From UHGV virus genome UHGV-0036008: 42,664 bases of DNA. The stretch is one strand, 5' to 3'. Source of the stretch: a virus. The translations under genes were made by a program, and so were the position numbers. The notes below the pieces were generated by a model. That model was not told the DNA's origin. It was given only the letters and a program-made list of their open reading frames with translations, and ran no database searches. Shown here in pieces: positions 1,309 through 42,614 of the stretch. The first letter of the stretch is position 1. Each line of letters begins with the position of its first letter.

Positions 1309-1571
1309 GGCACATCCCTGTGCCGCTGTTCTGTCAGAAGAACCCTGCCTTGTCGTTGATGTACTCCGCGTGGGTCTGGATATCACGCAGACATTTGCTC
1401 ACACCGACGATGTAGCAGAACATGGTGGTCAGCTCCGCCGCCGCACCCGATACGTCGTGCCCGTCTTCCTGTAACTGGTTCAGCAGATTCATCAGCAGTG
1501 AGTTCTCCGTCAGGCCGAGAACACCAGACGGCGAATGAATCAGGCTGCGGTAGCCGGGCTTCAGCGGGGCA
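1309..1571. repeat. Copy A of a roughly 260-bp direct repeat (about 95% identical to 33423..33690)
   Basis: Hand alignment: shared hairpin GGCACATCCCTGTGCC followed by the 3' end of an antirepressor-like gene. Confidence 0.8.
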
Positions 1572-2053
1572 CTGTATTCTTTTTTGTCTTCCAGCTTGAT
1601 CGCCTCCATAATGGCGGGCATGAATTTTTCAATTACCTGAGAGGCCTTAGATAAATCAGTTCCACCTGAGAGACGAACATCTCCACTGAGATTTGCGGGT
1701 TTTCTGTCGAAGTAGCAGTCTTCCAGTTTTTCGAACACTTCCCACGCCTGATCGGTTTCCAGCATTTTGGCATGGCGGGCTGCTCCGCGTTCTGTCCAGA
1801 GGATGAGGGAGCGAGTTTTGGGGGATACTGGATTTTGTGAGTTACTTAAAGTAACCCGTAAATTTTTCAGCTCATCGCCAACAACTTTGAAAAAGTGTTT
1901 TCCACAAACAAAGCGATCGGCATTGCGCGAATGGTTCACTTTGATGTTATTAGTGTCAGTGCTGTAAAGTCGCGCCAGTAGTTCGGTAGTGATGACGGGG
2001 ATGTGGTTATAGGTAATTGGGGAAAGAGATTCAACAGAAATTTGAGTAGCCAT
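1334..2053 (-). CDS. Antirepressor-like protein (ORF6N/Rha-type N-terminal domain fused to a shared C-terminal domain)
   Basis: N-terminus VITTELLARLY..NHSRNADRFVCGKHFF..LWTERGA pattern of phage ORF6N/Rha regulators; C-terminal 85 aa nearly identical to C-terminus of ORF 33447..34157. Confidence 0.55.
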   Translation of the reverse strand: MATQISVESLSPITYNHIPVITTELLARLYSTDTNNIKVNHSRNADRFVCGKHFFKVVGDELKNLRVTLSNSQNPVSPKTRSLILWTERGAARHAKMLETDQAWEVFEKLEDCYFDRKPANLSGDVRLSGGTDLSKASQVIEKFMPAIMEAIKLEDKKEYSAPLKPGYRSLIHSPSGVLGLTENSLLMNLLNQLQEDGHDVSGAAAELTTMFCYIVGVSKCLRDIQTHAEYINDKAGFF

Positions 2054-2202
2054 GGTTTTATGTCCTTTCGATTCGTTCAGATTACCCTGTGTTCAGCAGG
2101 GCGGTCAGGTACTTGAACACCGTCGAAAGTTCGGCCCGCATCCTTAGCCTTGCGGCTGTTTTTCGGTATACGCGCTACCCGACCATATCTGAAAAATGGA
2201 CA

Positions 2203-2232
2203 TAAAAAAGCCGCATGACTGACGGGTGCGGT
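2203..2232 (-). terminator. Rho-independent terminator (minus strand)
   Basis: Hairpin CCGCA(N11)TGCGG followed by a U-run on the minus strand, just downstream of ORF 2302..2547. Confidence 0.45.
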
Positions 2233-2301
2233 TTCCGCTTTCGAAGGTGTGTTCAGCACCATGAAGCGGAATATAGACCCGTTAATGCGGCGTTGTCAAT
2301 T

Positions 2302-4311: not shown

Positions 4312-5193
4312 TTACATAGATGTTTCGTTTAATTCTTCCCGACGAACGCTGTAAACGTCGGTGGCTTTTGCCAGCAGTTCGTCATCATCTGAAAGTTTTT
4401 GTGCAATGTATTTGTAAGCCTTATCCAGTTCGGAGACAGTGCTGTAATTCATCGCTGCGCTGGTAAAGGCCATCAGCATTTCTTCTGGATCACGGCTATC
4501 CGCTTTACGAGTTTGCTCATCAGGCTTTTTCACTGGTTTAGCGTTGATCAGACTGTTCATTCCCGCAGCAGTAGTTGTTTGCGGAGTAATGTCTCGCTCA
4601 ACGCGCGGTGCCGTTTCCTGTAATTCGTCAGGGGTGTAAACACCGAGAAGCACATCAGGAGCGTGCAGGCGAGCCCATCGTTTCGTGCAAAGATAGGCAA
4701 GCTGCTGGCGCGGATCCTGTTCCCACAATGGAGAGTTACGCACTCCGGCTTGCGCCATACTGATGGTAAGCTCACGGGGGTCTGCTTCTCCTTTAAGAAC
4801 TGCTGACACAGTTACCGTCAGATTCGGTGATTTATCTGTTTTGCCGTTAACATTCGACCAGTCACCGCTCCAGCGATAATTCAGGCGTGTCGCCAGCAGG
4901 CTGGAAGAGGATACGACCGCGTTTACCAACTGTGCTTCGTAGCCTAACGTTCCGTTTACCACATGCGTTTTCTGCGCCACGGCGAAAGGGTTCATTCCCC
5001 ACTGTGCCGCCTGCATGGTCACCGCCAGACAATCGGCAGGTTTGCCTTCAAGATGTTTCGGTACAGTCGCTTTGCTTTGTGACATCAACTCCGCGAAACG
5101 CACCAGTTGATTCATGCCCTCCGGGCTGAAGATTGCCGCAGCAGTACCTACAGTTGCGCCTGGTTGTGATGTGATTGCGATATCATTGCTCAT
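4312..5193 (-). CDS. Single-strand annealing recombinase (RecT/Red-beta-like)
   Basis: 293 aa; ...RVERDITPQ segment resembles lambda Bet; gene order and translational coupling with upstream exonuclease gene. Confidence 0.6.
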   Translation of the reverse strand: MSNDIAITSQPGATVGTAAAIFSPEGMNQLVRFAELMSQSKATVPKHLEGKPADCLAVTMQAAQWGMNPFAVAQKTHVVNGTLGYEAQLVNAVVSSSSLLATRLNYRWSGDWSNVNGKTDKSPNLTVTVSAVLKGEADPRELTISMAQAGVRNSPLWEQDPRQQLAYLCTKRWARLHAPDVLLGVYTPDELQETAPRVERDITPQTTTAAGMNSLINAKPVKKPDEQTRKADSRDPEEMLMAFTSAAMNYSTVSELDKAYKYIAQKLSDDDELLAKATDVYSVRREELNETSM

Positions 5194-6011
5194 ACGTACA
5201 TATCCTGTTTACGTGCCCAGTCAGGGCGTTTAATAATTTCCACGCCGCCCCATTCATCATTGATGCGGCATTCGTGATAGGTATTCAGATCCCGGCGGAA
5301 CAGAGCGTGCCCGGCATCGACATCCGGCGCATCCAGCGCGAACATGCGTACCGGATACCGACCACAATCAATGCTTTCGCTCACGGCAAGAAAGAAAAAA
5401 CCATGCGACTGACCAGTAACCCTCATCGCTCCTTCGCGGTACATTGCGTCCTGCACGTGGTAGCGGAATTCCTCGATGTGGCGTGCAAAACGATCCATAT
5501 CTGCAACCTTTTTCACGTCGACGATCACGTTGTGCTCGTTCAGCCATTTGTCTGGACGAATGCGGCACAACTCACCAGTCTCTTCATCGTTCCAGTACAT
5601 TGATGCTTCGCAGTAACCAGGAGCTTCCAACATCCAGCGTGCCGCCGGGTGAGCCATTGCGCTATCACGCATCAGCTCCAGTTTCCGCCACTGCTCGGCA
5701 TCAAGTACCGTAATCCCCATATCCGCCACATCACGAAGAAATGCCTCTTCGTCAGCTTTACCTTGTTTCGTCCGACGATCGAATTTCGGTGAAACAATGA
5801 AGCGTTTGTCGAACTCTCCAGGCTCCAGAAGCAGACAGTGCAATGCGGTTCCCATATCCAGTGCAGACTTTTTCTCTTCGTCTTCTGGTGCTGCCTGAAC
5901 CCATTTAAGAAGCGCCGGATTCTTGGCAACCATGTCCAGTTGCGACTTACTCACGCCGTCACCGGCGTGGTAGTCTTCGTTGCTGATGTCGAAATAAATT
6001 CCCGGTTTCAT
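5190..6011 (-). CDS. RecE-like PD-(D/E)xK exonuclease
   Basis: 273 aa; N-terminal GIYFDISNEDYHAG..SKSQL signature of RecE C-terminal nuclease-like domain; overlaps downstream recombinase gene by 4 nt. Confidence 0.65.
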   Translation of the reverse strand: MKPGIYFDISNEDYHAGDGVSKSQLDMVAKNPALLKWVQAAPEDEEKKSALDMGTALHCLLLEPGEFDKRFIVSPKFDRRTKQGKADEEAFLRDVADMGITVLDAEQWRKLELMRDSAMAHPAARWMLEAPGYCEASMYWNDEETGELCRIRPDKWLNEHNVIVDVKKVADMDRFARHIEEFRYHVQDAMYREGAMRVTGQSHGFFFLAVSESIDCGRYPVRMFALDAPDVDAGHALFRRDLNTYHECRINDEWGGVEIIKRPDWARKQDMYV

Positions 6012-6309: not shown

Positions 6310-6462
6310 TCAGCCCTCCCATATCTCGTTATCGTTGGCCACATCGCGAGCTTCTTTGCTGACGAAAGCCCACTTAATGCCTTCCTGTAAGGTGCGGAAC
6401 TTCCAGCTCATGAATCCGCATGCAGTAACGCAGTACCAACCGTTGATGATTTTCCACTGCAT
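6310..6462 (-). CDS. Hypothetical 50-aa protein, first gene of leftward early operon
   Basis: Not in ORF track (below 60 aa); ATG with GAGG RBS, stop overlaps next gene start; hand-translated MQWKIINGWYCVTACGF... Confidence 0.3.
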   Translation of the reverse strand: MQWKIINGWYCVTACGFMSWKFRTLQEGIKWAFVSKEARDVANDNEIWEG

Positions 6463-6468
6463 AACTTG

Positions 6469-6559
6469 TTACCTCGGTCTGTTACCGTTGAGGTAATAAT
6501 TATGCGTATTTGGTTTGATGTCAATAGATATGAGTTAAAAAAATTACCCATCAGGTAAT
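6469..6559. promoter_or_regulatory. OL-like operator cluster: TTACC half-site plus two ATTACC-N5-GGTAAT palindromes
   Basis: Sites at about 6482..6497 and 6543..6559 between repressor terminator and leftward early operon. Confidence 0.6.
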
Positions 6560-6571
6560 AGTATAGGCAAT

Positions 6572-6594
6572 AAAAAAGCCGCCAGAAGGCGGCT
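6572..6594 (-). terminator. Rho-independent terminator of repressor gene
   Basis: GCCGCCAGAAGGCGGC hairpin followed by U6 on minus strand, 20 nt after repressor stop. Confidence 0.6.
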
Positions 6595-6615
6595 TACTTA
6601 CTGAAAAGTATGATT

Positions 6616-7200
6616 TTATTGTTTGTTTTTTTCGTTCTGGTTGATGACAAATTCAATGTAACTTTCGATCTTTGCTTTCTCGGTTTCGGGTAACAATGCG
6701 TAGCGCGAGCGGTCATAGTTGATGGTCGCAGGGTCGTGCGGGTGAATCAGTAATTCATAGCCGTGACGCCCGAATGCGGATGCAACATTCTCCAGGGTGG
6801 AAATGGAAACGCTGACCTCATTGTTTAACAGGCGACTGATTGTCACCTGGGCGACGCCGGATGCGCGGTGAAGTTTTCCCTGCGTTGAAAGGTCGCGGCT
6901 TTCGCTCATCCAGCGTTCCAGGTTGTGAGCCGCCAGCTGACCAATGTCGCTTGGGCCGACAGGCTGAAAACCTTCCTGAGAAAGCGAGCGATCGATATCA
7001 AGCCAGTTACGGGGTTTATTGGCGGCAGCTTCAATTTTTCGCGCAACCTGGTCGCCGATAACCTTCTTGCCAAGAGCCCAGCGGTTTACCAGATTTGCCT
7101 GAGTTCCAAGTTTTTCTGCCATCCGCGTCTGAACACCATTGAATTCACGGTCGATCAAGTCGTTGAGATTTTGCCTGCGGACGTCCTGGATACTTTTCAT
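6616..7200 (-). CDS. Prophage repressor, tandem XRE-type HTH, no S24 peptidase domain
   Basis: 194 aa; two HTH-like segments (QTRMAEKLGTQANLVNRW and ASGVAQVTISRLLNNEVS); sits between OL- and OR-like operator clusters, divergent from cro-like gene. Confidence 0.6.
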   Translation of the reverse strand: MKSIQDVRRQNLNDLIDREFNGVQTRMAEKLGTQANLVNRWALGKKVIGDQVARKIEAAANKPRNWLDIDRSLSQEGFQPVGPSDIGQLAAHNLERWMSESRDLSTQGKLHRASGVAQVTISRLLNNEVSVSISTLENVASAFGRHGYELLIHPHDPATINYDRSRYALLPETEKAKIESYIEFVINQNEKNKQ

Positions 7201-7254
7201 TTTCTGGAAAATCGCCTCATATATGAATCAGTAGATGATTCAATTTAAAGCAAT

Positions 7255-7319
7255 ATTACCCAACAGGTAAATGCACCTCATAGGTAACTATCCTTGATTT
7301 TTGTTACCTTATGGGTGAA
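7255..7319. promoter_or_regulatory. OR-like operator cluster in repressor/cro divergent region
   Basis: ATTACCcaacaGGTAAA at about 7255..7271 and degenerate TTACCttatgGGTGAA at about 7304..7319. Confidence 0.6.
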
Positions 7320-7354
7320 TATTTATTATCTGAAATAAATATCAGGCAATAGCT

Positions 7355-7585
7355 ATGAGCGATAACGGACATTTCGATTTCAAAAAGCACTGGCTTGCAC
7401 TTACTCCGGATGAGCGTGAAGCCTTCGCACAGGAAGCCGGAACGACGAGTCACTATATCCAGACTCACTTAACAGGTAAGCGCAAAATGCCAGGTAAAGT
7501 ATTGATGAATGGGCTTTTTAAAGCCTGTAAAACAAGACAATGGCTGCGCTCAAAAGCAGAACTGGCATACTTCTTCTACTCATGA
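7355..7585 (+). CDS. Cro-like HTH regulator
   Basis: 76-aa ORF divergent from repressor; LTPDEREAFAQEAGTTSHYIQTHLTGKRKMP resembles Cro/YdaS-type HTH. Confidence 0.5.
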   Translation: MSDNGHFDFKKHWLALTPDEREAFAQEAGTTSHYIQTHLTGKRKMPGKVLMNGLFKACKTRQWLRSKAELAYFFYS

Positions 7586-7606: not shown

Positions 7607-7631
7607 AGACCGCCACCCGGCGGTCTTTTCA
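7607..7631 (+). terminator. Rho-independent terminator after cro-like gene
   Basis: AGACCGCCACCCGGCGGTCT hairpin followed by TTTTC. Confidence 0.55.
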
Positions 7632-9585: not shown

Positions 9586-9664
9586 ATTACCTGGCGGGTA
9601 ATAAAATATTCTAAAATCTATTGATTTCGTGTCTTATGTGGTTTTTAATTACCTCAAGGGTAAA
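9586..9664. promoter_or_regulatory. Two ATTACC-N5-GGTAA palindromes; the second ends 2 nt before the ATG at 9667
   Basis: ATTACCtggcgGGTAAT at about 9586..9602; ATTACCtcaagGGTAAA at about 9648..9664. Confidence 0.55.
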
Positions 9665-16042: not shown

Positions 16043-16119
16043 TGGCGTGGCATGCAGGATTCGAACCTGCGACCAACCGCTTAGAAAGCGGTTGCTCTGT
16101 CCAGCTGAGCTAATGCCAC
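16043..16119 (-). tRNA. tRNA-Arg (anticodon UCU), phage-encoded, argU-like
   Basis: 77-nt cloverleaf read from reverse complement: acceptor GTGGCAT/ATGCCAC, D-arm GCTC/GAGC, anticodon stem ACCGC/GCGGT with loop TTTCTAA, T-arm GCAGG-TTCGAAT-CCTGC, 3' CCA. Confidence 0.85.
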
Positions 16120-19446: not shown

Positions 19447-20439
19447 ATGACAATGGCTGTTAAAGGCTTAACTGCGCTAACGCTGGCTGACTGGGGTAAG
19501 CGCGTCGATCCAAACGGGAAAGTCGATAAGATTATCGAGCTTCTCGGTCAAACTAACCCGATCCTTCAGGATATGCCTTTTGTCGAAGGGAACCTTCCTA
19601 CCGGACACCGAACCACCATTCGTTCTGGTTTACCTTCAGCTACCTGGCGTTTGCTGAACTATGGCGTACAGCCAAGCAAATCAACCACAGTGCAGGTAAC
19701 CGATTCCGTTGGCATGCTGGAAACCTATGCGGAAGTCGATAAGTCACTGGCTGATCTGAACGGCAATACCGCCGAATTCCGCCTTTCTGAAGACCGCGCA
19801 TTTATTGAAGCGATGAATCAGCAGATGGCGCAGACGCTGTTTTATGGTGATTCCAGCGTTAACCCTCAGCAGTTTATGGGACTGTCCTCCCGCTATTCCA
19901 GCCTGTCTGCGGGTAATGCTCAGAACATCATTGATGCTGGTGGCACGGGTACAGATAACACCTCAATCTGGTTAGTGGTGTGGGGCGAAAACACCGTGCA
20001 TGGCATCTTCCCGAAAGGGCAGAAGGCTGGCATCCAGATGGAAGATAAAGGCCAGGTGACACTGGAAGATGCTAATGGCGGCAAGTACGAAGGCTATCGC
20101 ACCCATTACAAATGGGATAACGGACTTGCTCTGCGTGACTGGCGTTATGTTGTTCGCATTGCAAACATCGATGTCAGCAATATTTCAGAACCATCCTCTG
20201 CCGCAAATATTGCGAAGTTGATGGTTAAAGCACTACATCGCATTCCAAACCGTGGCATGGGCCGCCCGGTGTTCTACATGAACCGCACTGTAGGCCAGGC
20301 TCTTGATCTGCAGTCTCTGGAGAAAACATCTCTGGCTATCAGCGTAAAAGAGACAGAAGGCGAGTGGTGGACTTCATTCCGTGGTGTACCAATCCGTGAA
20401 ACTGATGCGCTTCTGGAAACAGAAGCCCGCGTGGTGTAA
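19447..20439 (+). CDS. Major capsid protein
   Basis: 330 aa; position after scaffold; followed by a strong stem-loop (about 20454..20475), as common after major capsid genes. Confidence 0.7.
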   Translation: MTMAVKGLTALTLADWGKRVDPNGKVDKIIELLGQTNPILQDMPFVEGNLPTGHRTTIRSGLPSATWRLLNYGVQPSKSTTVQVTDSVGMLETYAEVDKSLADLNGNTAEFRLSEDRAFIEAMNQQMAQTLFYGDSSVNPQQFMGLSSRYSSLSAGNAQNIIDAGGTGTDNTSIWLVVWGENTVHGIFPKGQKAGIQMEDKGQVTLEDANGGKYEGYRTHYKWDNGLALRDWRYVVRIANIDVSNISEPSSAANIAKLMVKALHRIPNRGMGRPVFYMNRTVGQALDLQSLEKTSLAISVKETEGEWWTSFRGVPIRETDALLETEARVV

Positions 20440-34554: not shown

Positions 34555-35283
34555 ATGGAAGTTTTCTGGATAGTTGTTGGTGTGGTTGCGGTGATTATTT
34601 ACGTTATCAACCAGAACAAGACTAAGATCTCTGATCGTACGGTCGTTAATCAGAACAAAACGATAAAGACCGAAGATGGGGAGGTAACGATTAGTCGTAC
34701 ACAGGTGATAGAACACACATCTACTCAGTTTCAAAAAACTGGAGGTAACGCGCCTGATATTTCCGTACCTCCTGCTTATGATAGTGCGGTAATCCAGACA
34801 TATTATAAACAGCAGGAGTTAGCAAAAGAGAGGCAACTGATTCAGCCAAAGCCGTTTACAGCTGAGCTTCCACCTGGAGTGTCAACGCGTCCGGCATATC
34901 ATGGAAGATTCCCTGGTGATGACATATCGTCTCAGTCATCTAAAAAAGCACCTCAGGCAGTATCAGAGCCAGCAAGAATACCTTCTGTATCGCCGCCAAA
35001 AGAAGAATCAGCTAACAGAGTTTCAAGTGGCCGCAAGCAGTGTTTGCGATGCAGAATAAACCTTCCATATGACAAATTCCGGAAATCGTCAAAAAATCCA
35101 GATGGATTGACTAAGTGGTGTGCAAGGTGCCTCGATGGCCCAAAGAATACACGCCATATGAAGTGGTGCCCAATTTGTAATGTCCGCAGAAAACGGACCA
35201 GCTTTTACCCTAATAATCAAAATGCGGACGGCTTAATGGCATGGTGCAAAACGTGCTGGGACGAGCACAAAGCGAAACGATAG
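34555..35283 (+). CDS. Membrane-anchored protein with duplicated C-terminal zinc-ribbon motif
   Basis: N-terminal TM helix (VFWIVVGVVAVIIYVI); two repeats of C-x2-C...N-x-DGL-x2-WC-x2-C. Confidence 0.5.
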   Translation: MEVFWIVVGVVAVIIYVINQNKTKISDRTVVNQNKTIKTEDGEVTISRTQVIEHTSTQFQKTGGNAPDISVPPAYDSAVIQTYYKQQELAKERQLIQPKPFTAELPPGVSTRPAYHGRFPGDDISSQSSKKAPQAVSEPARIPSVSPPKEESANRVSSGRKQCLRCRINLPYDKFRKSSKNPDGLTKWCARCLDGPKNTRHMKWCPICNVRRKRTSFYPNNQNADGLMAWCKTCWDEHKAKR

Positions 35284-35307
35284 GCCGCTCTTGCGGCCTT
35301 TAAATTT
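35283..35307 (+). terminator. Intrinsic terminator
   Basis: GGCCGCTCTTGCGGCC hairpin followed by TTTAAATTT. Confidence 0.5.
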
Positions 35308-35565
35308 ACCGGGTTTGTTTTCGTAATTGTTCGGCACAATAGTCGAGATGTGTTTGCAGATCCTGCATAGACATCTGTGAGCTGGTGACGTAGTTAATCA
35401 GTGCAGTCAGTTCGGCAAGTGGGCCATCGACATTAAATCCATCCTTATCGAGATCCCGGAGTAATTTCATCAAGTGCGATCCCTCCACCAGTGACCTGAC
35501 GCCTCCCGGCGTGTGAATCCTTTCGGTAAATCCGTCTTCCAGTGGATAGTGATACTGCTGCATCT
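35306..35565 (-). CDS. Stand-alone copy of the antirepressor C-terminal domain (86 aa)
   Basis: From internal Met with GGAGAAG RBS; YHYPLEDGFTERIHTPGGVRSLVEGSHLMKLLRDLDKDGFNVDGPLAELT...DLQTH aligns with C-termini of ORFs 1334..2053 and 33447..34157. Confidence 0.45.
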
Positions 35566-35638
35566 TATCTTCTCCATGCAATAACTGTATGTTTATACAG
35601 TAACAAATAATTTGTTTGCTATCCAGCACGTTTTGCAA

Positions 35639-35655
35639 ATTACCCGAAAGGTAAT
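35639..35655. promoter_or_regulatory. ATTACC-N5-GGTAAT site between stand-alone domain gene and tailspike
   Basis: ATTACCcgaaaGGTAAT. Confidence 0.5.
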
Positions 35656-35758
35656 ATCTATTGGTATTTATAGTCTTTTTATCCATATATGGTTTTTCAG
35701 GTAATAGAATAACCAGATATGCGGCGCAACGGGTGCTGCGACTATCTGGAGATTTAAC

Positions 35759-38700
35759 ATGACGGTCTCAACCGAAGTTGACCACAACGAATACACCGGT
35801 AACGGCGTTACGACATCGTTTCCGTATACTTTTCGAATTTTCAGAAAATCAGACCTGGTTGTTCAGGTGTCTGACCTGAACGGGAACGTAACAGAATTGG
35901 TCCTGGATACCGGTTATACGGTAACTGGGGCGGGCACTTATAGTGGCGGTTCTGTGGTTCTTCCGTCTCCGCTTGCTACTGGATGGCGAATTACGATAGA
36001 TCGTGTGCTTGATGTAGTGCAGGACACAGACCTTCGCAATCAGGGAAAATTTTTCCCCGAAGTGCATGAAGATGCCTTTGACTACCTGACGATGCTGATC
36101 CAGCAATGTTTTGGGTGGTTCAGACGTGCATTGATGAAGCCCTCTCTGCTTGCAAAATATTACGATGCAAAGCAAAACAAAATTTCTAACCTTGCAGATC
36201 CATCATTTGAGCAGGACGCTGTAAATAATCGCTCAATGCGTAATTATGTCGATGCTGCAATCGCCGGAGTTGTTGGTGGTTTTGGTTGGTTTATTCAGTA
36301 TGGTTCTGGGGCTGTGTACCGAACGTTCCAGGATAAAATGCGTGATGCTATTAGCCCCAAAGATTTTGGAGCTGTTGGTGATGGTATAAATGACGATTCC
36401 ACTGCAATAAGCGCGTGCCTTGAAGCCTCATCTCCAGGTTATAAAATTGACGGATTAGGGCTTACTTTTAAAGTATCAACTCTTCCGGATGTCAGTCGAT
36501 TTAAAAATGCTCGTTTTTTATTTGAGAGAATACCGGGCCAGCCTCTTTTTTATGCTTCTGAAGATTTTATCCAGGGAGAGTTATTTAAAATTACAGATAC
36601 ACCGTGGTACAACGCCTGGACGCAGGATAAAACGTTTGTATATGACAATGTCATCTATGCGCCTTTTATGGCTGGAGACCGCCATGGTGTGAATAACCTC
36701 CATGTTGCATGGGTTCGCTCAGGAGATGACGGGAAGACCTGGACAACGCCGGAATGGCTTACAGATTTACATGAAAACTATCCCACAGTTAACTATCACT
36801 GCATGAGTATGGGGGTTGTCAGAAATCGCCTTTTTGCTGTAATTGAGACGCGGACCGTGAGAGGAAATAAACTGCAGGTTGCAGAGTTGTGGGATCGCCC
36901 AATGAGTCGCAGCCTTCGCGTTTATGGTGGTATAACGAAAGCAGCAAATCAGCAAGTCGCTTATATTCGCATTACTGATCACGGATTATTTGCTGGTGAT
37001 TTTGTCAACTTCTCAAACTCTGGTGTTACAGGTGTTACCGGGAATATGACGGTGACTACTGTTATTGATAAAAATACCTTTACAGTTACGACGCAAAATA
37101 CCCAGGATGTGGATCAGAATAACGAGGGTAGATACTGGAGTTTTGGCACATCATTTCACTCGTCACCATGGAGAAAAACCAGTCTTGGAACTATTCCTTC
37201 TTTTGTTGACGGAAGCACTCCTGTTACTGAGATTCACAGTTTTGCGACGATTAGCGATAACAGTTTTGCTGTTGGCTACCATAATGGTGATATTGGTCCA
37301 CGCGAGCTTGGGATACTCTATTTCTCTGATGCTTTCGGTTCTCCTGGTAGCTTTGTTCGCAGACGCATACCTGTAGAATATGAGGCGAATGCATCTGAGC
37401 CATGTGTAAAATATTATGATGGCATTCTGTATCTGACGACCAGGGGGACATTAAGTACTCAACCCGGTAGTTCATTGCACAGAAGCTCTGATTTAGGTAC
37501 ATCATGGAATTCTCTTCGCTTCCCAAATAATGTTCATCACTCAAACCTTCCTTTTGCCAAAGTTGGCGATGAGCTGATTATTTTTGGCAGTGAGCGCGCA
37601 TTTGGTGAGTGGGAAGGAGGAGAACCTGATAACCGTTATGCAGGAAATTATCCAAGAACATTTATGACCAGAGTTAACGTCAATGAGTGGAGTCTGGATA
37701 ATGTAGAGTGGGTTAATGTTACTGATCAGATTTATCAGGGCGGAATAGTTAACTCTGCGGTTGGTGTTGGTTCAGTTTGTATCAAAGACAACTGGCTGTA
37801 CTACATTTTCGGTGGGGAAGACTTTCTAAACCCATGGAGCATAGGGGATAACAACAGAAAATATCCTTATGTTCACGATGGTCACCCGGCTGATTTGTAT
37901 TGTTTCAGGGTGAAAATTAAACAGGAAGAATTTGTTTCAAGGGATTTTGTCTACGGAGCCACTCCTAACAGAACGCTTCCTACTTTTATGTCGACGTCAG
38001 GCGTGAGGACGGTTCCTGTACCCGTTGATTTCACAGATGATGTTGCCGTCCAGTCACTGACTGTCCATGCAGGTACATCAGGACAAGTTCGCGCGGAAGT
38101 CAAACTTGAGGGTAATTACGCCATTATTGCGAAGAAAGTACCGTCTGATGATGTTACCGCTCAGAGATTAATCGTTAGCGGCGGTGAAACAACGTCTTCA
38201 GCAGATGGTGCAATGATAACGTTGCATGGTTCCGGAAGCAGTACTCCACGTCGCGCGGTATATAACGCACTCGAACATCTTTTTGAGAACGGAGATGTTA
38301 AACCTTATCTTGATAATGTAAATGCTCTTGGTGGTCCGGGAAACAGGTTCTCGACAGTTTATCTTGGCTCCAATCCTGTGGTTACCAGTGACGGAACATT
38401 AAAGACAGAGCCGGTCTCTCCTGACGAAGCATTGCTGGATGCCTGGGGTGACGTCAGGTATATCGCTTATAAATGGCTGAACGCTGTCGCTATAAAGGGG
38501 GAAGAAGGGGCGAGGATACATCATGGTGTAATCGCGCAGCAACTTCGTGATGTTCTTATTTCTCACGGACTCATGGAAGAAGAAAGCACAACATGCCGCT
38601 ATGCCTTTCTTTGCTATGACGATTATCCCGCAGTATATGATGACGTCATTACTGGCCAAAGGGAAATGCCGCTGACTGATAATGACGGGAGCATCATTGT

Positions 38701-38878
38701 TGATGAGGATGATAATCCAGTGATGGTAATAGAAGACATCATTGAGCGCGTTGAAATAACGCCAGCAGGATCTAGATGGGGGGTCAGACCTGATCTCTTA
38801 TTCTATATCGAGGCAGCATGGCAGCGCAGAGAAATGGATAAGATAAAAGAGCGGGTTCAGTCTCTGGAAGAACGTTAA
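35759..38878 (+). CDS. Tailspike / tail fibre with depolymerase-type domain and C-terminal S74 intramolecular chaperone
   Basis: 1039 aa; T7-tail-fibre-like N-terminus (NEYTGNGVTTSFPYTFRIF); DFGAVGDGINDDSTAI beta-helix motif; Asp-boxes SGDDGKTW and SSDLGTSW; C-terminal SDGTLKTE...HHGVIAQQL autoprocessing signature. Confidence 0.8.
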   Translation: MTVSTEVDHNEYTGNGVTTSFPYTFRIFRKSDLVVQVSDLNGNVTELVLDTGYTVTGAGTYSGGSVVLPSPLATGWRITIDRVLDVVQDTDLRNQGKFFPEVHEDAFDYLTMLIQQCFGWFRRALMKPSLLAKYYDAKQNKISNLADPSFEQDAVNNRSMRNYVDAAIAGVVGGFGWFIQYGSGAVYRTFQDKMRDAISPKDFGAVGDGINDDSTAISACLEASSPGYKIDGLGLTFKVSTLPDVSRFKNARFLFERIPGQPLFYASEDFIQGELFKITDTPWYNAWTQDKTFVYDNVIYAPFMAGDRHGVNNLHVAWVRSGDDGKTWTTPEWLTDLHENYPTVNYHCMSMGVVRNRLFAVIETRTVRGNKLQVAELWDRPMSRSLRVYGGITKAANQQVAYIRITDHGLFAGDFVNFSNSGVTGVTGNMTVTTVIDKNTFTVTTQNTQDVDQNNEGRYWSFGTSFHSSPWRKTSLGTIPSFVDGSTPVTEIHSFATISDNSFAVGYHNGDIGPRELGILYFSDAFGSPGSFVRRRIPVEYEANASEPCVKYYDGILYLTTRGTLSTQPGSSLHRSSDLGTSWNSLRFPNNVHHSNLPFAKVGDELIIFGSERAFGEWEGGEPDNRYAGNYPRTFMTRVNVNEWSLDNVEWVNVTDQIYQGGIVNSAVGVGSVCIKDNWLYYIFGGEDFLNPWSIGDNNRKYPYVHDGHPADLYCFRVKIKQEEFVSRDFVYGATPNRTLPTFMSTSGVRTVPVPVDFTDDVAVQSLTVHAGTSGQVRAEVKLEGNYAIIAKKVPSDDVTAQRLIVSGGETTSSADGAMITLHGSGSSTPRRAVYNALEHLFENGDVKPYLDNVNALGGPGNRFSTVYLGSNPVVTSDGTLKTEPVSPDEALLDAWGDVRYIAYKWLNAVAIKGEEGARIHHGVIAQQLRDVLISHGLMEEESTTCRYAFLCYDDYPAVYDDVITGQREMPLTDNDGSIIVDEDDNPVMVIEDIIERVEITPAGSRWGVRPDLLFYIEAAWQRREMDKIKERVQSLEER

Positions 38879-40982: not shown

Positions 40983-41153
40983 CATGGCATTTTTCATGGT
41001 ACTGATTTCCGGTGACGGTATATAAAACGGTACGGGAAAAATTGAGATTTGGAAAAATGTTATCACTCAATTGGTTATGGTTATCGTAAATAATTGAGTG
41101 GGAATGATTCCGCGTCTGGCACAGCCAGGCACCTGATGGCATGAAATGCCGCT

Positions 41154-41281: not shown

Positions 41282-41390
41282 CCGATACCATGCTGCGTTC
41301 TTTTGTGTGTTCATGGTATTAATATTCTATAAGTTACTGTTTCGTAAGAAAAAATACGATAAATTCGAGATTTTTTCAGCATGGTATCGG
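41282..41390. repeat. Perfect 14-bp inverted repeat CCGATACCATGCTG / CAGCATGGTATCGG plus extra CATGGTAT copies upstream of second integrase
   Basis: Read from sequence; candidate integrase arm-type sites or att-region elements. Confidence 0.5.
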
Positions 41391-41411
41391 AGACGAAGAA
41401 GGACAAGGTAC

Positions 41412-42614
41412 ATGCTGACCGATACCAAGCTGCGCAATCTCAAGCCCAGGGACAAACTCTACAAAGTGAATGACCGGGAAGGTCTCTATGTGGCAGTGAC
41501 TCCAGCCGGCTCCATCTCGTTCCGTTACAACTACTCAATCAACGGTCGGCAGGAGACCATCACCTTTGGGCGTTATGGTGTCGGTGGCATCACCCTGGCC
41601 GAAGCCCGCGAGCTGTTGGGTGACGCCAAGAAGATGGTTGCGGCGGGCAAGTCGCCGGCCAAGGAGAAAGCCCGAGACAAGGCGCGGGTGAAAGATGCAG
41701 AGACGTTCGGTGCCTGGGCGGAGAAGTGGCTGCGTGGCTACCAGATGGCCGACTCCACCCGCGATATGCGCCGCTCGGTTTATGAGCGTGAGCTGAAGCC
41801 GAAATTCAGCAATCAGAAGCTGGTGGAGATCACCCACGAAGACTTGCGGGCGCTGGCTGATGCCATTGTTGAGCGAGGCGCACCGGCCACCGCCGTTCAT
41901 GTGCGTGAAATCGTGTTGCAGGTATTTCGCTGGGCCATCGAGCGTGGGCAGAAGGTCGAAAACCCGGCAGAACTGGTGCGCCCAACAAGCATCGCTCGAT
42001 TCGAGCCACGTGACCGAGCGTTGACGCCAGAAGAAATTGGGCTGATGTACCAGTACATGGAGCGAGTGGGCACAAGCCCAACAAACCGTGCGGCGGCCAA
42101 GCTGTTATTGCTGACGATGGTGCGCAAGAGCGAGCTGACCAATGCGACCTGGAGCGAGATCAATTTCAGCGAAGCGTTGTGGACGATTCCAAAGGAGCGG
42201 ATGAAACGCCGTAACCCGCACCTGGTATTTCTGTCCCAGCAGGCTCTGGATATTTTCATTGCCATGAAAACCTTTGCCGGTGGTTCCGACTTCGTTTTGC
42301 CATCACGGTACGACTCGGATGCGCCGATGAGCGCTGCCACACTTAACCAGGTGCTGACGCTGACTTACAAGGCGGCGCAGAAAGATGGGAAGTCACTTAC
42401 CAAGTTCGGACCGCATGATTTGCGGCGCACAGCCAGCACGCTGTTGCATGAGGCCGGCTACAACACCGACTGGATCGAGAAGTGCCTGGCGCACGAGCAG
42501 AAGGGCGTGAGGGCTGTCTACAACAAGGCTGAGTACCGCGAGCAGCGGGCGGCGATGTTGCAGGATTGGGCCGATATGATTGATGAGTGGACTTCGGGAG
42601 GCAGTAAGGGTTGA
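41412..42614 (+). CDS. int: Tyrosine integrase, P4-like family (second copy, diverged paralog)
   Basis: Start at internal Met of track ORF (MLTDTKLRNLKPRDKLYKVNDREGLYVAV); same domain signatures as ORF 50..1300, clearly diverged. Confidence 0.85.
   Translation: MLTDTKLRNLKPRDKLYKVNDREGLYVAVTPAGSISFRYNYSINGRQETITFGRYGVGGITLAEARELLGDAKKMVAAGKSPAKEKARDKARVKDAETFGAWAEKWLRGYQMADSTRDMRRSVYERELKPKFSNQKLVEITHEDLRALADAIVERGAPATAVHVREIVLQVFRWAIERGQKVENPAELVRPTSIARFEPRDRALTPEEIGLMYQYMERVGTSPTNRAAAKLLLLTMVRKSELTNATWSEINFSEALWTIPKERMKRRNPHLVFLSQQALDIFIAMKTFAGGSDFVLPSRYDSDAPMSAATLNQVLTLTYKAAQKDGKSLTKFGPHDLRRTASTLLHEAGYNTDWIEKCLAHEQKGVRAVYNKAEYREQRAAMLQDWADMIDEWTSGGSKG

What the first reader, a model, noticed from the sequence alone, without database searches (positions are those of the whole stretch)
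6310..7585. Immunity region: repressor lacks an autocleavage domain, implying antirepressor-dependent induction
The repressor (two XRE-like HTH segments, no Ser-Lys peptidase motifs) is flanked by operator clusters and a dedicated terminator, divergent from a cro-like gene. At least two antirepressor-type genes are present elsewhere (1334..2053; 33447..34157). I found no LexA box (CTGT-N8-ACAG) upstream of either, so the SOS link, if any, is unresolved.
Basis: inference. Interest (0 to 1): 0.45.

Follow-up and report, generated by a model that had tools for sequence, protein, structure and literature searches.

The report
Known phage repressor–antirepressor SOS switch
This is the immunity region of a common phiV10/epsilon15-type E. 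coli prophage whose repressor cannot cut itself and is most likely switched off by a small LexA-controlled antirepressor encoded 28 kb away, a mechanism already worked out in the related Salmonella phage SPC32H, so it is ordinary.

Summary
The repressor (6616-7200, minus strand) has two HTH-type segments, no S24 peptidase domain and no Ala-Gly or Cys-Gly site. It is flanked by operator palindromes and a terminator, and it diverges from a cro-like gene. The window is a phiV10/epsilon15-like (Uetakevirus) prophage.

The repressor aligns over its full length with SPC32H Rep (PDB 5D50/5D4Z). In SPC32H, Rep is inactivated by a small LexA-controlled antirepressor, Ant, rather than by RecA-dependent cleavage.

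An 85-aa ant (35306-35563, minus strand) is 88% identical to SPC32H Ant. It sits 22 nt downstream of the only strong LexA box in the window (35583-35602; core CTGTATGTTTATACAG on the plus strand). This resolves the SOS link.

Each has a C-terminal Ant-like domain and sits behind a C4-type antisense RNA cassette (isrK + C4; sRNA-Xcc1-like), as in P1 immI and Gifsy-1 isrK-anrP. They are probably auxiliary, SOS-independent antirepressors.

The system is already known, so interest is low.

The parts
6616..7200 (-). rep: prophage repressor, 194 aa. It has an N-terminal DNA-binding HTH domain, a central HTH_3-like domain and a C-terminal tetramerisation/Ant-binding element. It has no S24 peptidase domain.
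   Evidence: ORF. Pfam HTH_3 only, no S24. Matches PDB 5D50_A (SPC32H Rep) at E 4e-42 over residues 1-190, and 5D4Z (C-terminal domain) at E 4e-20. 100% identical to the phiV10 and ZX5 repressors and 41.8% to SPC32H Rep. No AG/CG dipeptide.
6576..6595 (-). Intrinsic terminator ending the rep transcript.
   Evidence: 8-bp stem (6 GC) followed by a T run. Annotated as a terminator in phiV10.
6482..6558 (.). OL-like region. Two exact operator palindromes (6482-6496 and 6544-6558, 62 bp apart) bracket a leftward promoter: -35 TTGACA at 6524-6519 and -10 AATTAT at 6501-6496.
   Evidence: SPC32H has three exact sites in its OL region, and its 62-bp pairing recurs at 35972/36034, the counterpart of window 9587/9649. 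Epsilon15 annotates the equivalent OL sites as protein_bind 'repressor'.
6310..6462 (-). First small gene of the leftward early operon (50 aa, function unknown).
   Evidence: phrog_898, E 1.9e-38. Equivalent to phiV10p39 and epsilon15 gp37.
7256..7329 (.). OR-like region. Operators lie at 7256-7270 (exact), 7273-7287 (2 mismatches) and 7304-7318 (1 mismatch). The last overlaps a rightward promoter, TTGTTA-17-TATTAT (7301-7329).
   Evidence: SPC32H has adjacent palindromes with the same 17-bp centre spacing at 34390/34407.
7355..7585 (+). cro-like gene, 76 aa, divergent from rep. It is followed by a terminator at 7607-7626.
   Evidence: phrog_35 'transcriptional repressor', E 5.6e-13. No Pfam or PDB match. 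Terminator. The assignment as cro rests on position and the PHROG match only.
35306..35563 (-). ant: small antirepressor, 85 aa, the probable SOS-triggered inactivator of Rep.
   Evidence: 88% identical to SPC32H Ant, which is annotated 'ant: anti-repressor protein'. Matches PDB 5D50_E at E 4e-47. Same position, divergent from the tailspike gene, as in SPC32H.
35583..35602 (.). LexA box, plus strand AACTGTATGTTTATACAGTA (read on the ant strand: TACTGTATAAACATACAGTT). It lies 22 nt upstream of the ant ATG.
   Evidence: Exact CTGT-N8-ACAG. PWM score 26.1 bits, against 10.5 for the next best site and 18.6 for the shuffle maximum. Conserved at the same distance in SPC32H, epsilon15 and TL-2011b. 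SPC32N differs from SPC32H by a G-to-T change in the CTGT of this box.
35640..35654 (.). Operator palindrome upstream of the ant promoter, between ant and the tailspike gene.
   Evidence: Exact TTACC-N5-GGTAA. An equivalent site exists in SPC32H at 20013. Epsilon15 annotates its equivalent, 19895-19911, as a repressor binding site.
33447..34157 (-). Bro-N gene with a C-terminal Ant-like domain (residues about 155-231). Probably an auxiliary antirepressor.
   Evidence: Pfam Bro-N, E 9.6e-20. The C-terminus matches 5D50_E (Ant) at E 1.2e-13. 82% identical to ZX5 ORF4, whose overexpression lowered lysogen counts about 1000-fold (PMC9782041).
34206..34441 (-). RNA control cassette of the Bro-N gene. 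In order on the minus strand: operator 34427-34441; promoter TTTACA-17-CATAGT (34425-34397); isrK-like sRNA with terminator (34314-34390); C4 antisense RNA (34206-34289).
   Evidence: Rfam isrK 67.7 bits and C4 66 bits, both above gathering. Promoter. The antisense elements and their targets covary across four phages.
1334..2053 (-). ORF6N-domain gene with the same C-terminal Ant-like domain.
   Evidence: Pfam ORF6N, E 2.8e-19. phrog_1760 'anti-repressor', E 1e-91. Its C-terminal coding 257 nt are 95% identical to 33446-33702. 39% identical to Ant.
2095..2299 (-). RNA control cassette of the ORF6N gene. In order on the minus strand: promoter TTGACA-18-TATATT (2299-2270); short hairpin-terminated leader (stem 2231-2211, T run 2209-2204); C4-like sRNA-Xcc1 RNA (2095-2184).
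   Evidence: Rfam sRNA-Xcc1, 64.2 bits. Promoter matches 11 of 12 consensus positions. Leader sequence read. Elements complementary to the RNA loops (UGAACAC, UCGAAAG) occur both in the leader and over the gene's Shine-Dalgarno sequence.

Best explanation
The region is the immunity switch of a phiV10/epsilon15-type (Uetakevirus) prophage and works like the Rep/Ant system of Salmonella phage SPC32H.

- Repression: Rep (6616-7200) binds TTACC-N5-GGTAA palindromes. These flank its own gene, two at a leftward promoter and three between rep and the cro-like gene. They also occur at other promoters of the prophage. Binding keeps the early operons off.
- Why Rep is not cleaved: Rep has no S24 peptidase domain and no Ala-Gly or Cys-Gly site, so DNA damage does not cleave it.
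- SOS route: host LexA sits on a consensus box overlapping the promoter region of a small gene, ant (35306-35563), 28 kb away next to the tailspike gene. SOS-induced LexA self-cleavage allows Ant synthesis. Ant then binds the C-terminal tetramerisation domain of Rep, breaks the DNA-binding tetramer and derepresses the prophage.
- Auxiliary routes: the two larger genes (Bro-N at 33447-34157, ORF6N at 1334-2053) carry a paralogous Ant-like C-terminal domain. Each is silenced by a P1-c4 / Gifsy-1-isrK type antisense RNA that pairs with its ribosome-binding site. They are probably SOS-independent or anti-immunity antirepressors.

Shown here: the homologies, the motifs, their positions and the RNA covariation. 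Inferred by homology: Rep-Ant binding, LexA occupancy and the lack of Rep cleavage.
For: - Identity of the element: the region is 98% identical in nucleotides to phiV10 and its relatives.
- Rep: full-length match to SPC32H Rep in the Rep-Ant complex 5D50 and to 5D4Z. It has no S24 domain and no AG/CG site.
- Ant: 88% identical to SPC32H Ant and matches 5D50_E at E 4e-47.
- LexA box: it is the only strong one in 42.6 kb, at 26.1 bits against 10.5 for the next site. It lies 22 nt from the ATG, exactly as in SPC32H, and is conserved in epsilon15 and TL-2011b.
- Functional hint from SPC32N: SPC32H and SPC32N differ at two bases, one of which destroys the CTGT of this box. From my memory of Kim & Ryu 2013, SPC32N makes Ant constitutively.
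- Operators: the palindrome has 11 exact copies against 0.02 expected. The same motif sits at syntenic positions in SPC32H and epsilon15. Epsilon15 annotates these sites as repressor binding sites.
- Co-occurrence: Rep and Ant homologs occur in the same roughly 35 phage records.
- Secondary literature: Rep binds palindromic DNA as a tetramer and tetrameric Ant breaks the tetramer (PMC9638917). The C-terminal domain mediates both tetramerisation and Ant binding (PMC9986798). SOS acts through LexA and Ant (PMC7380047).
- Experiment in a close relative: a ZX5 lysogen, whose Rep is identical, is mitomycin-C inducible from 1e7 to 1e9 PFU/ml (PMC9782041).
Against: - Nothing was measured in this prophage. 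Rep is only 42% identical to the characterised SPC32H Rep (34% in the central domain, 48% in the C-terminal 40 residues), so Ant binding is inferred.
- The simple sigma-70 scan found no promoter in the ant upstream region, so overlap between the LexA box and the promoter is assumed from SPC32H.
- I could not read the two primary SPC32H papers; neither is held. Their details rest on secondary citations and on my memory.
- Assigning the palindrome to Rep, rather than to another regulator, rests on its position, on the epsilon15 GenBank annotation and on a secondary description.
Confidence: 0.85

Rival explanations
1. The large Bro-N and/or ORF6N proteins are the antirepressors that trigger induction, with an SOS link through some non-canonical route.
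For: - Both carry an Ant-like C-terminal domain. The Bro-N protein matches 5D50_E at E 1.2e-13.
- That domain is found only in the phage records that also carry a Rep homolog.
- Overexpressing the 82%-identical ZX5 ORF4 lowered lysogen counts from 1e9 to 1e6 and lowered repressor transcription by 75% (PMC9782041).
- In Gifsy-1, an isrK-controlled antirepressor, AnrP, induces the prophage (PMC4825925).
Against: - Neither gene has a LexA box upstream; the best scores are -1.2 and 1.5 bits.
- Both sit behind C4-type antisense RNAs whose loops pair with the ribosome-binding sites, which is a silencing arrangement.
- SPC32H and epsilon15 lack these genes altogether yet keep rep, ant and the LexA box.
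- phiV10 lacks the ORF6N gene, and its Bro-N gene appears split.
- They are therefore accessory rather than the conserved trigger.
Confidence: 0.1
2. Rep is removed by proteolysis after all. This would be RecA-stimulated cleavage at a non-canonical site, or cleavage by a dedicated protease, with no antirepressor needed.
For: None from the sequence. Precedents exist elsewhere for repressors cut by partner metalloproteases, for example the DdrO/IrrE type (PMC6868357, title and abstract only).
Against: - Rep has no S24 domain and no AG/CG dipeptide.
- No COG2856-type protease gene lies next to rep.
- Rep aligns end to end with SPC32H Rep, whose inactivation is by Ant binding (PMC9638917, PMC9986798).
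Confidence: 0.03
3. The TTACC-N5-GGTAA palindromes are not Rep operators. They would be sites for another regulator, such as the cro-like protein or a late activator, or RNA-level hairpins near ribosome-binding sites.
For: - Several copies lie within 2-20 nt of start codons (9649, 13249, 33360, 34520, 6482).
- Copies occur far from the immunity region, for example upstream of the terminase small subunit gene.
- I could not read the SPC32H papers to see the footprinted operator sequence.
Against: - The sites cluster on both sides of rep and overlap the divergent promoters.
- The stretch NLVNRW in the N-terminal HTH is invariant across Rep homologs that otherwise share only 42% identity, which fits an unchanged half-site.
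- Epsilon15's curated record labels these sites as repressor binding.
- SPC32H Rep is reported to bind palindromic sites as a tetramer (PMC9638917).
- A 5-bp stem would make a very weak RNA hairpin.
Confidence: 0.07

Closest known systems
Rep/Ant antirepression switch of Salmonella phage SPC32H (Kim & Ryu 2013, J Virol 87:11775; Kim et al. 2016, PNAS 113:E2480; PDB 5D50, 5D4Z)
   Same: - Same phage genus and gene order.
- Rep is homologous over its full length.
- Ant is 88% identical.
- The LexA box lies 22 nt upstream of ant in both.
- Both use the TTACC-N5-GGTAA palindrome at OL, at OR, upstream of ant and at the other syntenic promoters.
   Different: - Rep is only 42% identical, so immunity specificity and Ant affinity are untested.
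- This prophage additionally carries two Ant-domain fusion genes under antisense RNA control, which SPC32H lacks.
Escherichia phages phiV10 and vB_EcoP_ZX5 (Uetakevirus)
   Same: - The immunity region is 98-99% identical in nucleotides and Rep is 100% identical.
- Ant is 97.6-100% identical.
- The attP/attR core ATTGAGTGGGAATGATT is the same (PMC9782041).
- ZX5 has the same isrK/C4 and Bro-N cassette.
   Different: - phiV10 has DUF1382 next to int instead of the ORF6N antirepressor-type gene.
- Neither record annotates the small ant as an antirepressor; it is listed as a hypothetical protein.
LexA-controlled antirepressors of Gifsy prophages and coliphage 186 Tum (Lemire et al. 2011, PMC3121763; Shearwin et al. 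1998)
   Same: Same logic. The repressor is non-cleavable and SOS is sensed through LexA repression of a small antirepressor gene (PMC7380047).
   Different: The proteins appear unrelated. Ant matched no Pfam or NCBIfam family. From memory, SPC32H Ant was described as structurally distinct from the Sipho- and Myoviridae antirepressors.
P1/P7 immI (c4 antisense RNA-icd-ant) and the Gifsy-1 isrK-orf45-anrP locus (PMC4825925)
   Same: This applies to the two large genes. Each has a promoter, then a short terminated RNA carrying copies of the target elements, then a C4-family RNA, then targets overlapping the antirepressor's ribosome-binding site. The loop and target sequences covary between phages, as between P1 and P7.
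   Different: - The regulated protein is a Bro-N or ORF6N fusion to an SPC32H-Ant-like domain, not P1 Ant or Gifsy AnrP.
- A translationally coupled upstream ORF (icd/orf45 type) was not examined.
- A Rep-type operator abuts the -35 of the isrK-like promoter.
Lambda CI / LexA-type autocleaving repressors (Peptidase S24)
   Same: The layout is the same: divergent rep and cro promoters with a triple operator, and a second operator set at a leftward promoter.
   Different: There is no S24 domain and no cleavage site. Inactivation is by protein binding, not cleavage.

Membership tests
SPC32H-type Rep/Ant antirepression system | Repressor homologous to SPC32H Rep over its whole length, including the C-terminal tetramerisation/Ant-binding domain. 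| tested here: met
   5D50_A matches at E 4e-42 over residues 1-190 of 194, and 5D4Z (C-terminal domain) at E 4e-20. There are 14 invariant residues in positions 151-190 across five homologs.
SPC32H-type Rep/Ant antirepression system | Small (about 86 aa) Ant homolog encoded apart from the immunity region, divergent from the tailspike gene. | tested here: met
   85 aa, 88% identical to SPC32H Ant. Matches 5D50_E at E 4e-47. Synteny shown.
SPC32H-type Rep/Ant antirepression system | LexA box in the ant promoter region. | tested here: met
   Exact CTGT-N8-ACAG at 35585-35600. PWM score 26.1 bits, unique in the window. Same 22-nt distance to the ATG as in SPC32H, where the SPC32N mutation lies in this box.
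SPC32H-type Rep/Ant antirepression system | Repressor not cleaved on SOS induction: no autoprotease domain. | tested here: met
   At the sequence level only. No Peptidase_S24 match and no AG/CG dipeptide. Actual stability after DNA damage cannot be tested here.
SPC32H-type Rep/Ant antirepression system | Physical Rep-Ant complex that releases Rep from operator DNA. | not testable with these tools
   Needs pull-down and EMSA. It is inferred from homology and from co-occurrence of the two genes in the same phage records.
LexA/CI-type autocleaving repressors (Peptidase S24) | C-terminal S24 Ser-Lys peptidase domain and an Ala-Gly or Cys-Gly cleavage site. | tested here: not met
   No S24 match at E up to 0.1. 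No AG or CG dipeptide in the 194 residues.
P1 immI / Gifsy-1 isrK-type antisense-RNA-controlled antirepressor cassette (applies to the Bro-N and ORF6N genes) | C4-family RNA encoded upstream of the antirepressor gene on the same strand. | tested here: met
   Rfam C4 66 bits (gathering 45) and isrK 67.7 bits (gathering 50) upstream of the Bro-N gene. sRNA-Xcc1 64.2 bits (gathering 53) upstream of the ORF6N gene.
P1 immI / Gifsy-1 isrK-type antisense-RNA-controlled antirepressor cassette (applies to the Bro-N and ORF6N genes) | Two loop elements complementary to targets both upstream (a1/b1) and downstream (a2/b2), with the downstream target over the ribosome-binding site. Compensatory changes between relatives. 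| tested here: met
   Sequences read.

- Window: targets AUUGGCGU and CUAAGUGG pair with ACGCCAA and CCACUUAG.
- TL-2011b: the b element is CUAAAAGG pairing with CCUUUUAG.
- Tyrion and the Klebsiella phage: AUUGGUCU pairs with AGACCAA, and CUACAAAGG pairs with CCUUUGUAG.
P1 immI / Gifsy-1 isrK-type antisense-RNA-controlled antirepressor cassette (applies to the Bro-N and ORF6N genes) | Translationally coupled small upstream ORF (icd / orf45) and processing of the RNA from the read-through transcript. | not tested
   I did not look for an upstream ORF. Processing needs Northern blots.
P22 immI (Mnt/Arc/Ant with sar RNA) | arc and mnt genes and the sar antisense RNA next to ant. | tested here: not met
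   Rfam finds no sar RNA in the window. The relative TL-2011b does have sar plus Arc and Ant.

The most novel reading that the evidence does not exclude
One prophage deploys the same Rep-binding (Ant) domain three times, each copy under a different input:

- a free 85-aa Ant under LexA;
- a Bro-N fusion under an isrK/C4 antisense RNA switch;
- an ORF6N fusion under a second, orthogonal C4-like RNA.

Rep-type operators are conserved directly at the ant and isrK promoters. Induction would then be a multi-input circuit with built-in feedback (SOS, an RNA-gated non-SOS signal, and superinfection/anti-immunity). The fusion of the SPC32H-Ant fold to Bro-N/KilA-N-type domains would be an undescribed antirepressor architecture. 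The evidence does not exclude this. The Ant-like domain is significant, is restricted to Rep-bearing phages, and ZX5 ORF4 has an antirepressor phenotype (PMC9782041).
Probability: 0.35. Interest if true: 0.4.

Novelty: already known. Interest (0 to 1): 0.18.

Why it matters
The finding matters little as a discovery. It re-identifies the SPC32H Rep/Ant paradigm in a prophage type that carries the ant gene and its promoter in 531 of 5426 complete E. coli genomes.

Its practical value is for annotation:

- The small ant gene is almost always labelled 'hypothetical'.
- It is often called 41 codons too long, so that the gene call swallows its own LexA box.
- The large Bro-N 'anti-repressor' is taken to be the switch, for example in the ZX5 study (PMC9782041).

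Correctly placing the SOS input helps predict which E. coli prophages are induced by DNA-damaging antibiotics.

The three-fold use of the Ant domain under LexA and C4-type RNA control is a modest lead worth testing.

Tried and rejected
- Primary papers. I tried to read the two SPC32H papers (PMC3807360, PMC4983836) and the epsilon15 genome paper (PMC2698709). None is held. I used secondary citations and database records instead.
- LexA sites upstream of the two large genes. I scanned with a PWM built from about 20 E. coli boxes recalled from memory and found nothing above 1.5 bits. The idea that they are SOS genes was rejected.
- Cro-like protein. It matched nothing in Pfam, NCBIfam or PDB. 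Only PHROG supports a regulator role.
- ant promoter. The sigma-70 consensus scan found no promoter upstream of ant. My readings of candidate hexamers by eye were inconclusive and I dropped them.
- Novelty of the dispersed palindromes. I considered whether they were a new 'stoperator'-like feature. Rejected, because epsilon15's record already annotates them as repressor sites and SPC32H has them at the same positions.
- Large protein search with Ant. It returned only small Ant homologs from enterobacterial prophages and did not reach the fusion proteins. It added little beyond prevalence.
Full report
**What the window is**

The 2-kb region around the finding is 98-99% identical in nucleotides to Escherichia phages phiV10, vB_EcoP_ZX5, TL-2011b and relatives. 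It is more distantly related to Enterobacter phage Tyrion. phiV10 is a Uetakevirus, the epsilon15-like temperate podophages.

The window runs from the prophage integrase (50-1300) through the early-left operon, the immunity region, replication genes, virion genes, the tailspike and the lysis genes to Rz (ending 40982). The attachment core ATTGAGTGGGAATGATT lies at 41093-41109. That core sequence and the guaA 3'-end integration site are given in PMC9782041. A second integrase beyond the core (41307-42614) belongs to something else.

**Checking the observation**

- The repressor ORF is 6616-7200 on the minus strand, 194 aa.
- Pfam finds HTH_3 at residues 106-147 and a weaker HTH-type match at 21-61. 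It finds no Peptidase_S24.
- The protein has no Ala-Gly or Cys-Gly dipeptide, so a LexA/CI-type cleavage site is absent.
- An intrinsic terminator lies at 6576-6595, and phiV10 annotates it too.
- The divergent 76-aa gene at 7355-7585 matches only a PHROG family of transcriptional repressors. It has no Pfam or PDB match. 'Cro-like' therefore rests on position plus that one match.
- The operator clusters are copies of the palindrome TTACC-N5-GGTAA.
  - Two exact copies, 62 bp apart, bracket a leftward TTGACA-17-AATTAT promoter (6482, 6544).
  - Three copies lie between rep and the cro-like gene (7256 exact, 7273, 7304). The last overlaps a rightward TTGTTA-17-TATTAT promoter.
  - Exact copies in the window number 11, against 0.02 expected from shuffles.
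- The two antirepressor-type genes exist on the minus strand. One has an ORF6N domain (1334-2053) and the other a Bro-N domain (33447-34157).
- Neither has a LexA box upstream.

**What the repressor is**

It aligns end to end with the repressor of Salmonella phage SPC32H in the crystal structure of the Rep-Ant complex (5D50 chain A, E 4e-42). It also matches the isolated C-terminal domain (5D4Z). Identity to SPC32H Rep is 42% overall: 53% in the N-terminal 73 residues, 34% in the central domain and 48% in the last 40 residues.

Secondary sources describe the mechanism. SPC32H Rep binds palindromic DNA as a tetramer. Tetrameric Ant binds two Rep dimers and breaks the tetramer (PMC9638917). The C-terminal tetramerisation domain is also the Ant-binding domain (PMC9986798). 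In Salmonella prophages of this kind, SOS acts through LexA self-cleavage and antirepressor synthesis rather than repressor cleavage (PMC7380047, citing Kim & Ryu 2013). I could not open the two primary papers. My recollection of their abstracts agrees with these summaries.

**The missing piece: the SOS link**

A search for CTGT-N8-ACAG finds three exact matches. One of them, CTGTATGTTTATACAG at 35585-35600, looks like a textbook LexA box.

I built a PWM from about 20 E. coli LexA boxes recalled from memory. It scores the 20-mer at 35583-35602 at 26.1 bits, equal to the strongest training sites. The next best site in the window scores 10.5 bits and the best site in shuffled sequence scores 18.6.

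On the minus strand the box is followed, 22 nt later and after a GGAG Shine-Dalgarno sequence, by an ATG opening an 85-codon gene, 35306-35563.

- That protein is 88% identical to the annotated ant gene of SPC32H.
- It matches the Ant chain of 5D50 at E 4e-47.
- As in SPC32H, it sits divergently upstream of the tailspike gene.
- The box is conserved at the same distance in SPC32H, epsilon15 and TL-2011b.

Comparing the deposited genomes of SPC32H and SPC32N shows exactly two differences. One turns the CTGT of this box into CTTT. That matches my memory of the 2013 paper, in which this mutation makes Ant constitutive.

Mechanical ORF calling, and many database entries, extend this gene to 126-127 aa, starting upstream of the box. 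That extension may be why the gene is overlooked.

**What the two large genes are**

Their C-terminal 85 or so residues are homologous to Ant.

- They are 39% identical to the window's Ant.
- The Bro-N protein matches 5D50 chain E at E 1.2e-13.
- The two C-terminal coding regions are a 257-nt direct repeat, 95% identical.
- Among 50,697 phage records, this domain occurs only in the 34 uetakevirus-like records, which also carry a Rep homolog.

Neither gene has a LexA box. Instead Rfam places RNA genes directly upstream of both, on the same strand. An isrK-like sRNA with its terminator (34314-34390) and a C4 antisense RNA (34206-34289) lie before the Bro-N gene. An sRNA-Xcc1 (C4-like) RNA (2095-2184) lies before the ORF6N gene. 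All three are above gathering scores.

Reading the sequences shows the classic P1 immI layout.

- The C4 loop CCACUUAG and the single-stranded ACGCCAA are complementary to CUAAGUGG and AUUGGCGU.
- Each target occurs twice: once in the upstream isrK-like RNA, and once in the leader, where CUAAGUGG overlaps the Shine-Dalgarno sequence of the Bro-N gene.
- The pairs covary between phages. TL-2011b has CUAAAAGG with CCUUUUAG. Tyrion and a Klebsiella phage have CUACAAAGG with CCUUUGUAG, and AUUGGUCU with AGACCAA.
- The ORF6N cassette has the same logic with unrelated elements (UGAACAC, UCGAAAG). It sits behind a strong TTGACA-18-TATATT promoter.

In Gifsy-1, the homologous isrK-orf45-anrP arrangement gates translation of an antirepressor that induces the prophage independently of SOS (PMC4825925). 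In ZX5, Rep is identical to this one and ORF4 is 82% identical to the Bro-N protein, with an identical C-terminal two-thirds. Overexpressing ORF4 lowered lysogen counts from 1e9 to 1e6. The ZX5 lysogen was mitomycin-C inducible, from 1e7 to 1e9 PFU/ml (PMC9782041).

SPC32H and epsilon15 have no such genes or RNAs. I therefore read the two large genes as accessory, RNA-gated antirepressors (anti-immunity or non-SOS induction), not the conserved SOS trigger.

**Operators beyond the immunity region**

The same palindrome also occurs at these positions:

- 7641 (one mismatch), after the cro terminator;
- 9587 and 9649, again 62 bp apart around a promoter-like TTGATT-17-TTTAAT that I read by eye;
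- 13231 and 13249, at the terminase small subunit start;
- 16442;
- 33360;
- 34427, abutting the -35 of the isrK-like promoter;
- 34520;
- 35640, upstream of ant.

SPC32H and epsilon15 carry the same motif at syntenic places, including upstream of ant. The epsilon15 RefSeq record already labels those sites 'protein_bind: repressor', so this is known. The stretch NLVNRW in the N-terminal HTH is invariant across Rep homologs that share only 42% identity, which fits the unchanged half-site.

The operators at the ant and isrK promoters suggest that Rep is wired directly to its own antirepressors. Whether it represses or activates them cannot be told from sequence.

**Mechanism and confidence**

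- Shown here: the homologies, the absence of a protease domain and cleavage site, the unique LexA box and its conservation, the operator statistics and synteny, and the RNA families with their compensatory changes.
- Inferred: LexA occupancy, Ant-Rep binding at 42% Rep identity, no cleavage of Rep, and Rep as the protein that binds the palindrome.

I put 0.85 on the SPC32H-type mechanism. Cryptic proteolysis gets 0.03.

**Novelty**

The immunity region is essentially that of phiV10 and ZX5, and the mechanism is that of SPC32H, with solved structures. The ant gene plus its promoter occurs in 531 of 5426 complete E. coli genomes. That makes it already known.

The only modestly new reading is that the SPC32H-Ant fold is reused as the C-terminal domain of Bro-N and ORF6N proteins under two orthogonal C4-type RNA switches. 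That would give three inputs onto one repressor. I did not find this stated in the papers I could read, but it remains untested.

Noticed in passing
window 7641, 9587, 9649, 13231, 13249, 16442, 33360, 34427, 34520, 35640: The operator palindrome TTACC-N5-GGTAA is spread over the whole prophage, at promoters and just upstream of start codons. Examples are the terminase small subunit gene and a pair 62 bp apart at 9587/9649 that mirrors the OL pair. SPC32H and epsilon15 have it at syntenic places, and epsilon15's record labels those sites as repressor sites.
   Followed up: yes
window 34206-34390 (-) and 2095-2299 (-): There is an isrK-like sRNA plus C4 antisense RNA upstream of the Bro-N gene, and an sRNA-Xcc1 (C4-like) RNA upstream of the ORF6N gene. 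The loop elements are complementary to targets over the ribosome-binding sites. The pairs covary between window, TL-2011b, Tyrion and a Klebsiella phage.
   Followed up: yes
window 1333-1589 and 33446-33702: A 257-nt direct repeat, 95% identical, lies 32 kb apart. It is the Ant-like C-terminal coding part of the ORF6N and Bro-N genes, which suggests recent exchange between the two cassettes.
   Followed up: partly
window 41093-41109 and 41307-42614: The attachment core ATTGAGTGGGAATGATT (attR, guaA 3' end in ZX5) is followed by a second P4-type integrase gene (435 aa). Stretches of it are 74% similar in nucleotides to the prophage's own int. It is probably a second element integrated in tandem at the same site.
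   Followed up: partly
window 35306-35686 (-): Mechanical ORF calling, and many database entries (126-127 aa, one cluster with 833 members), start ant 41 codons too early, upstream of its own LexA box. The SPC32H annotation and crystal chain are 86 aa. The gene is labelled 'hypothetical' in nearly all E. coli phage records.
   Followed up: partly
window 35759-38878 (+): RefSeq annotates identical E. coli prophage copies of this tailspike as an endosialidase catalytic beta-propeller domain protein. That would point to a polysialic-acid (K1-type) capsule as the receptor.
   Followed up: no
window 16043-16119 (-): A phage-borne tRNA-Arg (anticodon TCT) lies between the terminase and portal genes, as in SPC32H and TL-2011b.
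   Followed up: no
window 4312-6011 (-): RecT (4312-5193) and the exonuclease (5190-6011) are separate overlapping ORFs here. phiV10's record annotates a single fused RecE-RecT CDS over the same stretch.
   Followed up: no
window 34555-35283 (+): A 242-aa gene between the Bro-N cassette and ant has an N-terminal hydrophobic stretch and repeated Cys-rich motifs that match endonuclease VII/HNH-like PHROGs. An operator palindrome (34520) lies 20 nt upstream of its start. Its function is unknown.
   Followed up: no
L005 (TL-2011b) 31060-32244 and 31231-31298: The relative TL-2011b additionally carries a P22-type Arc/Ant pair with a sar antisense RNA. That gives this phage lineage up to three different kinds of antirepressor control. 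The window has no sar hit.
   Followed up: partly
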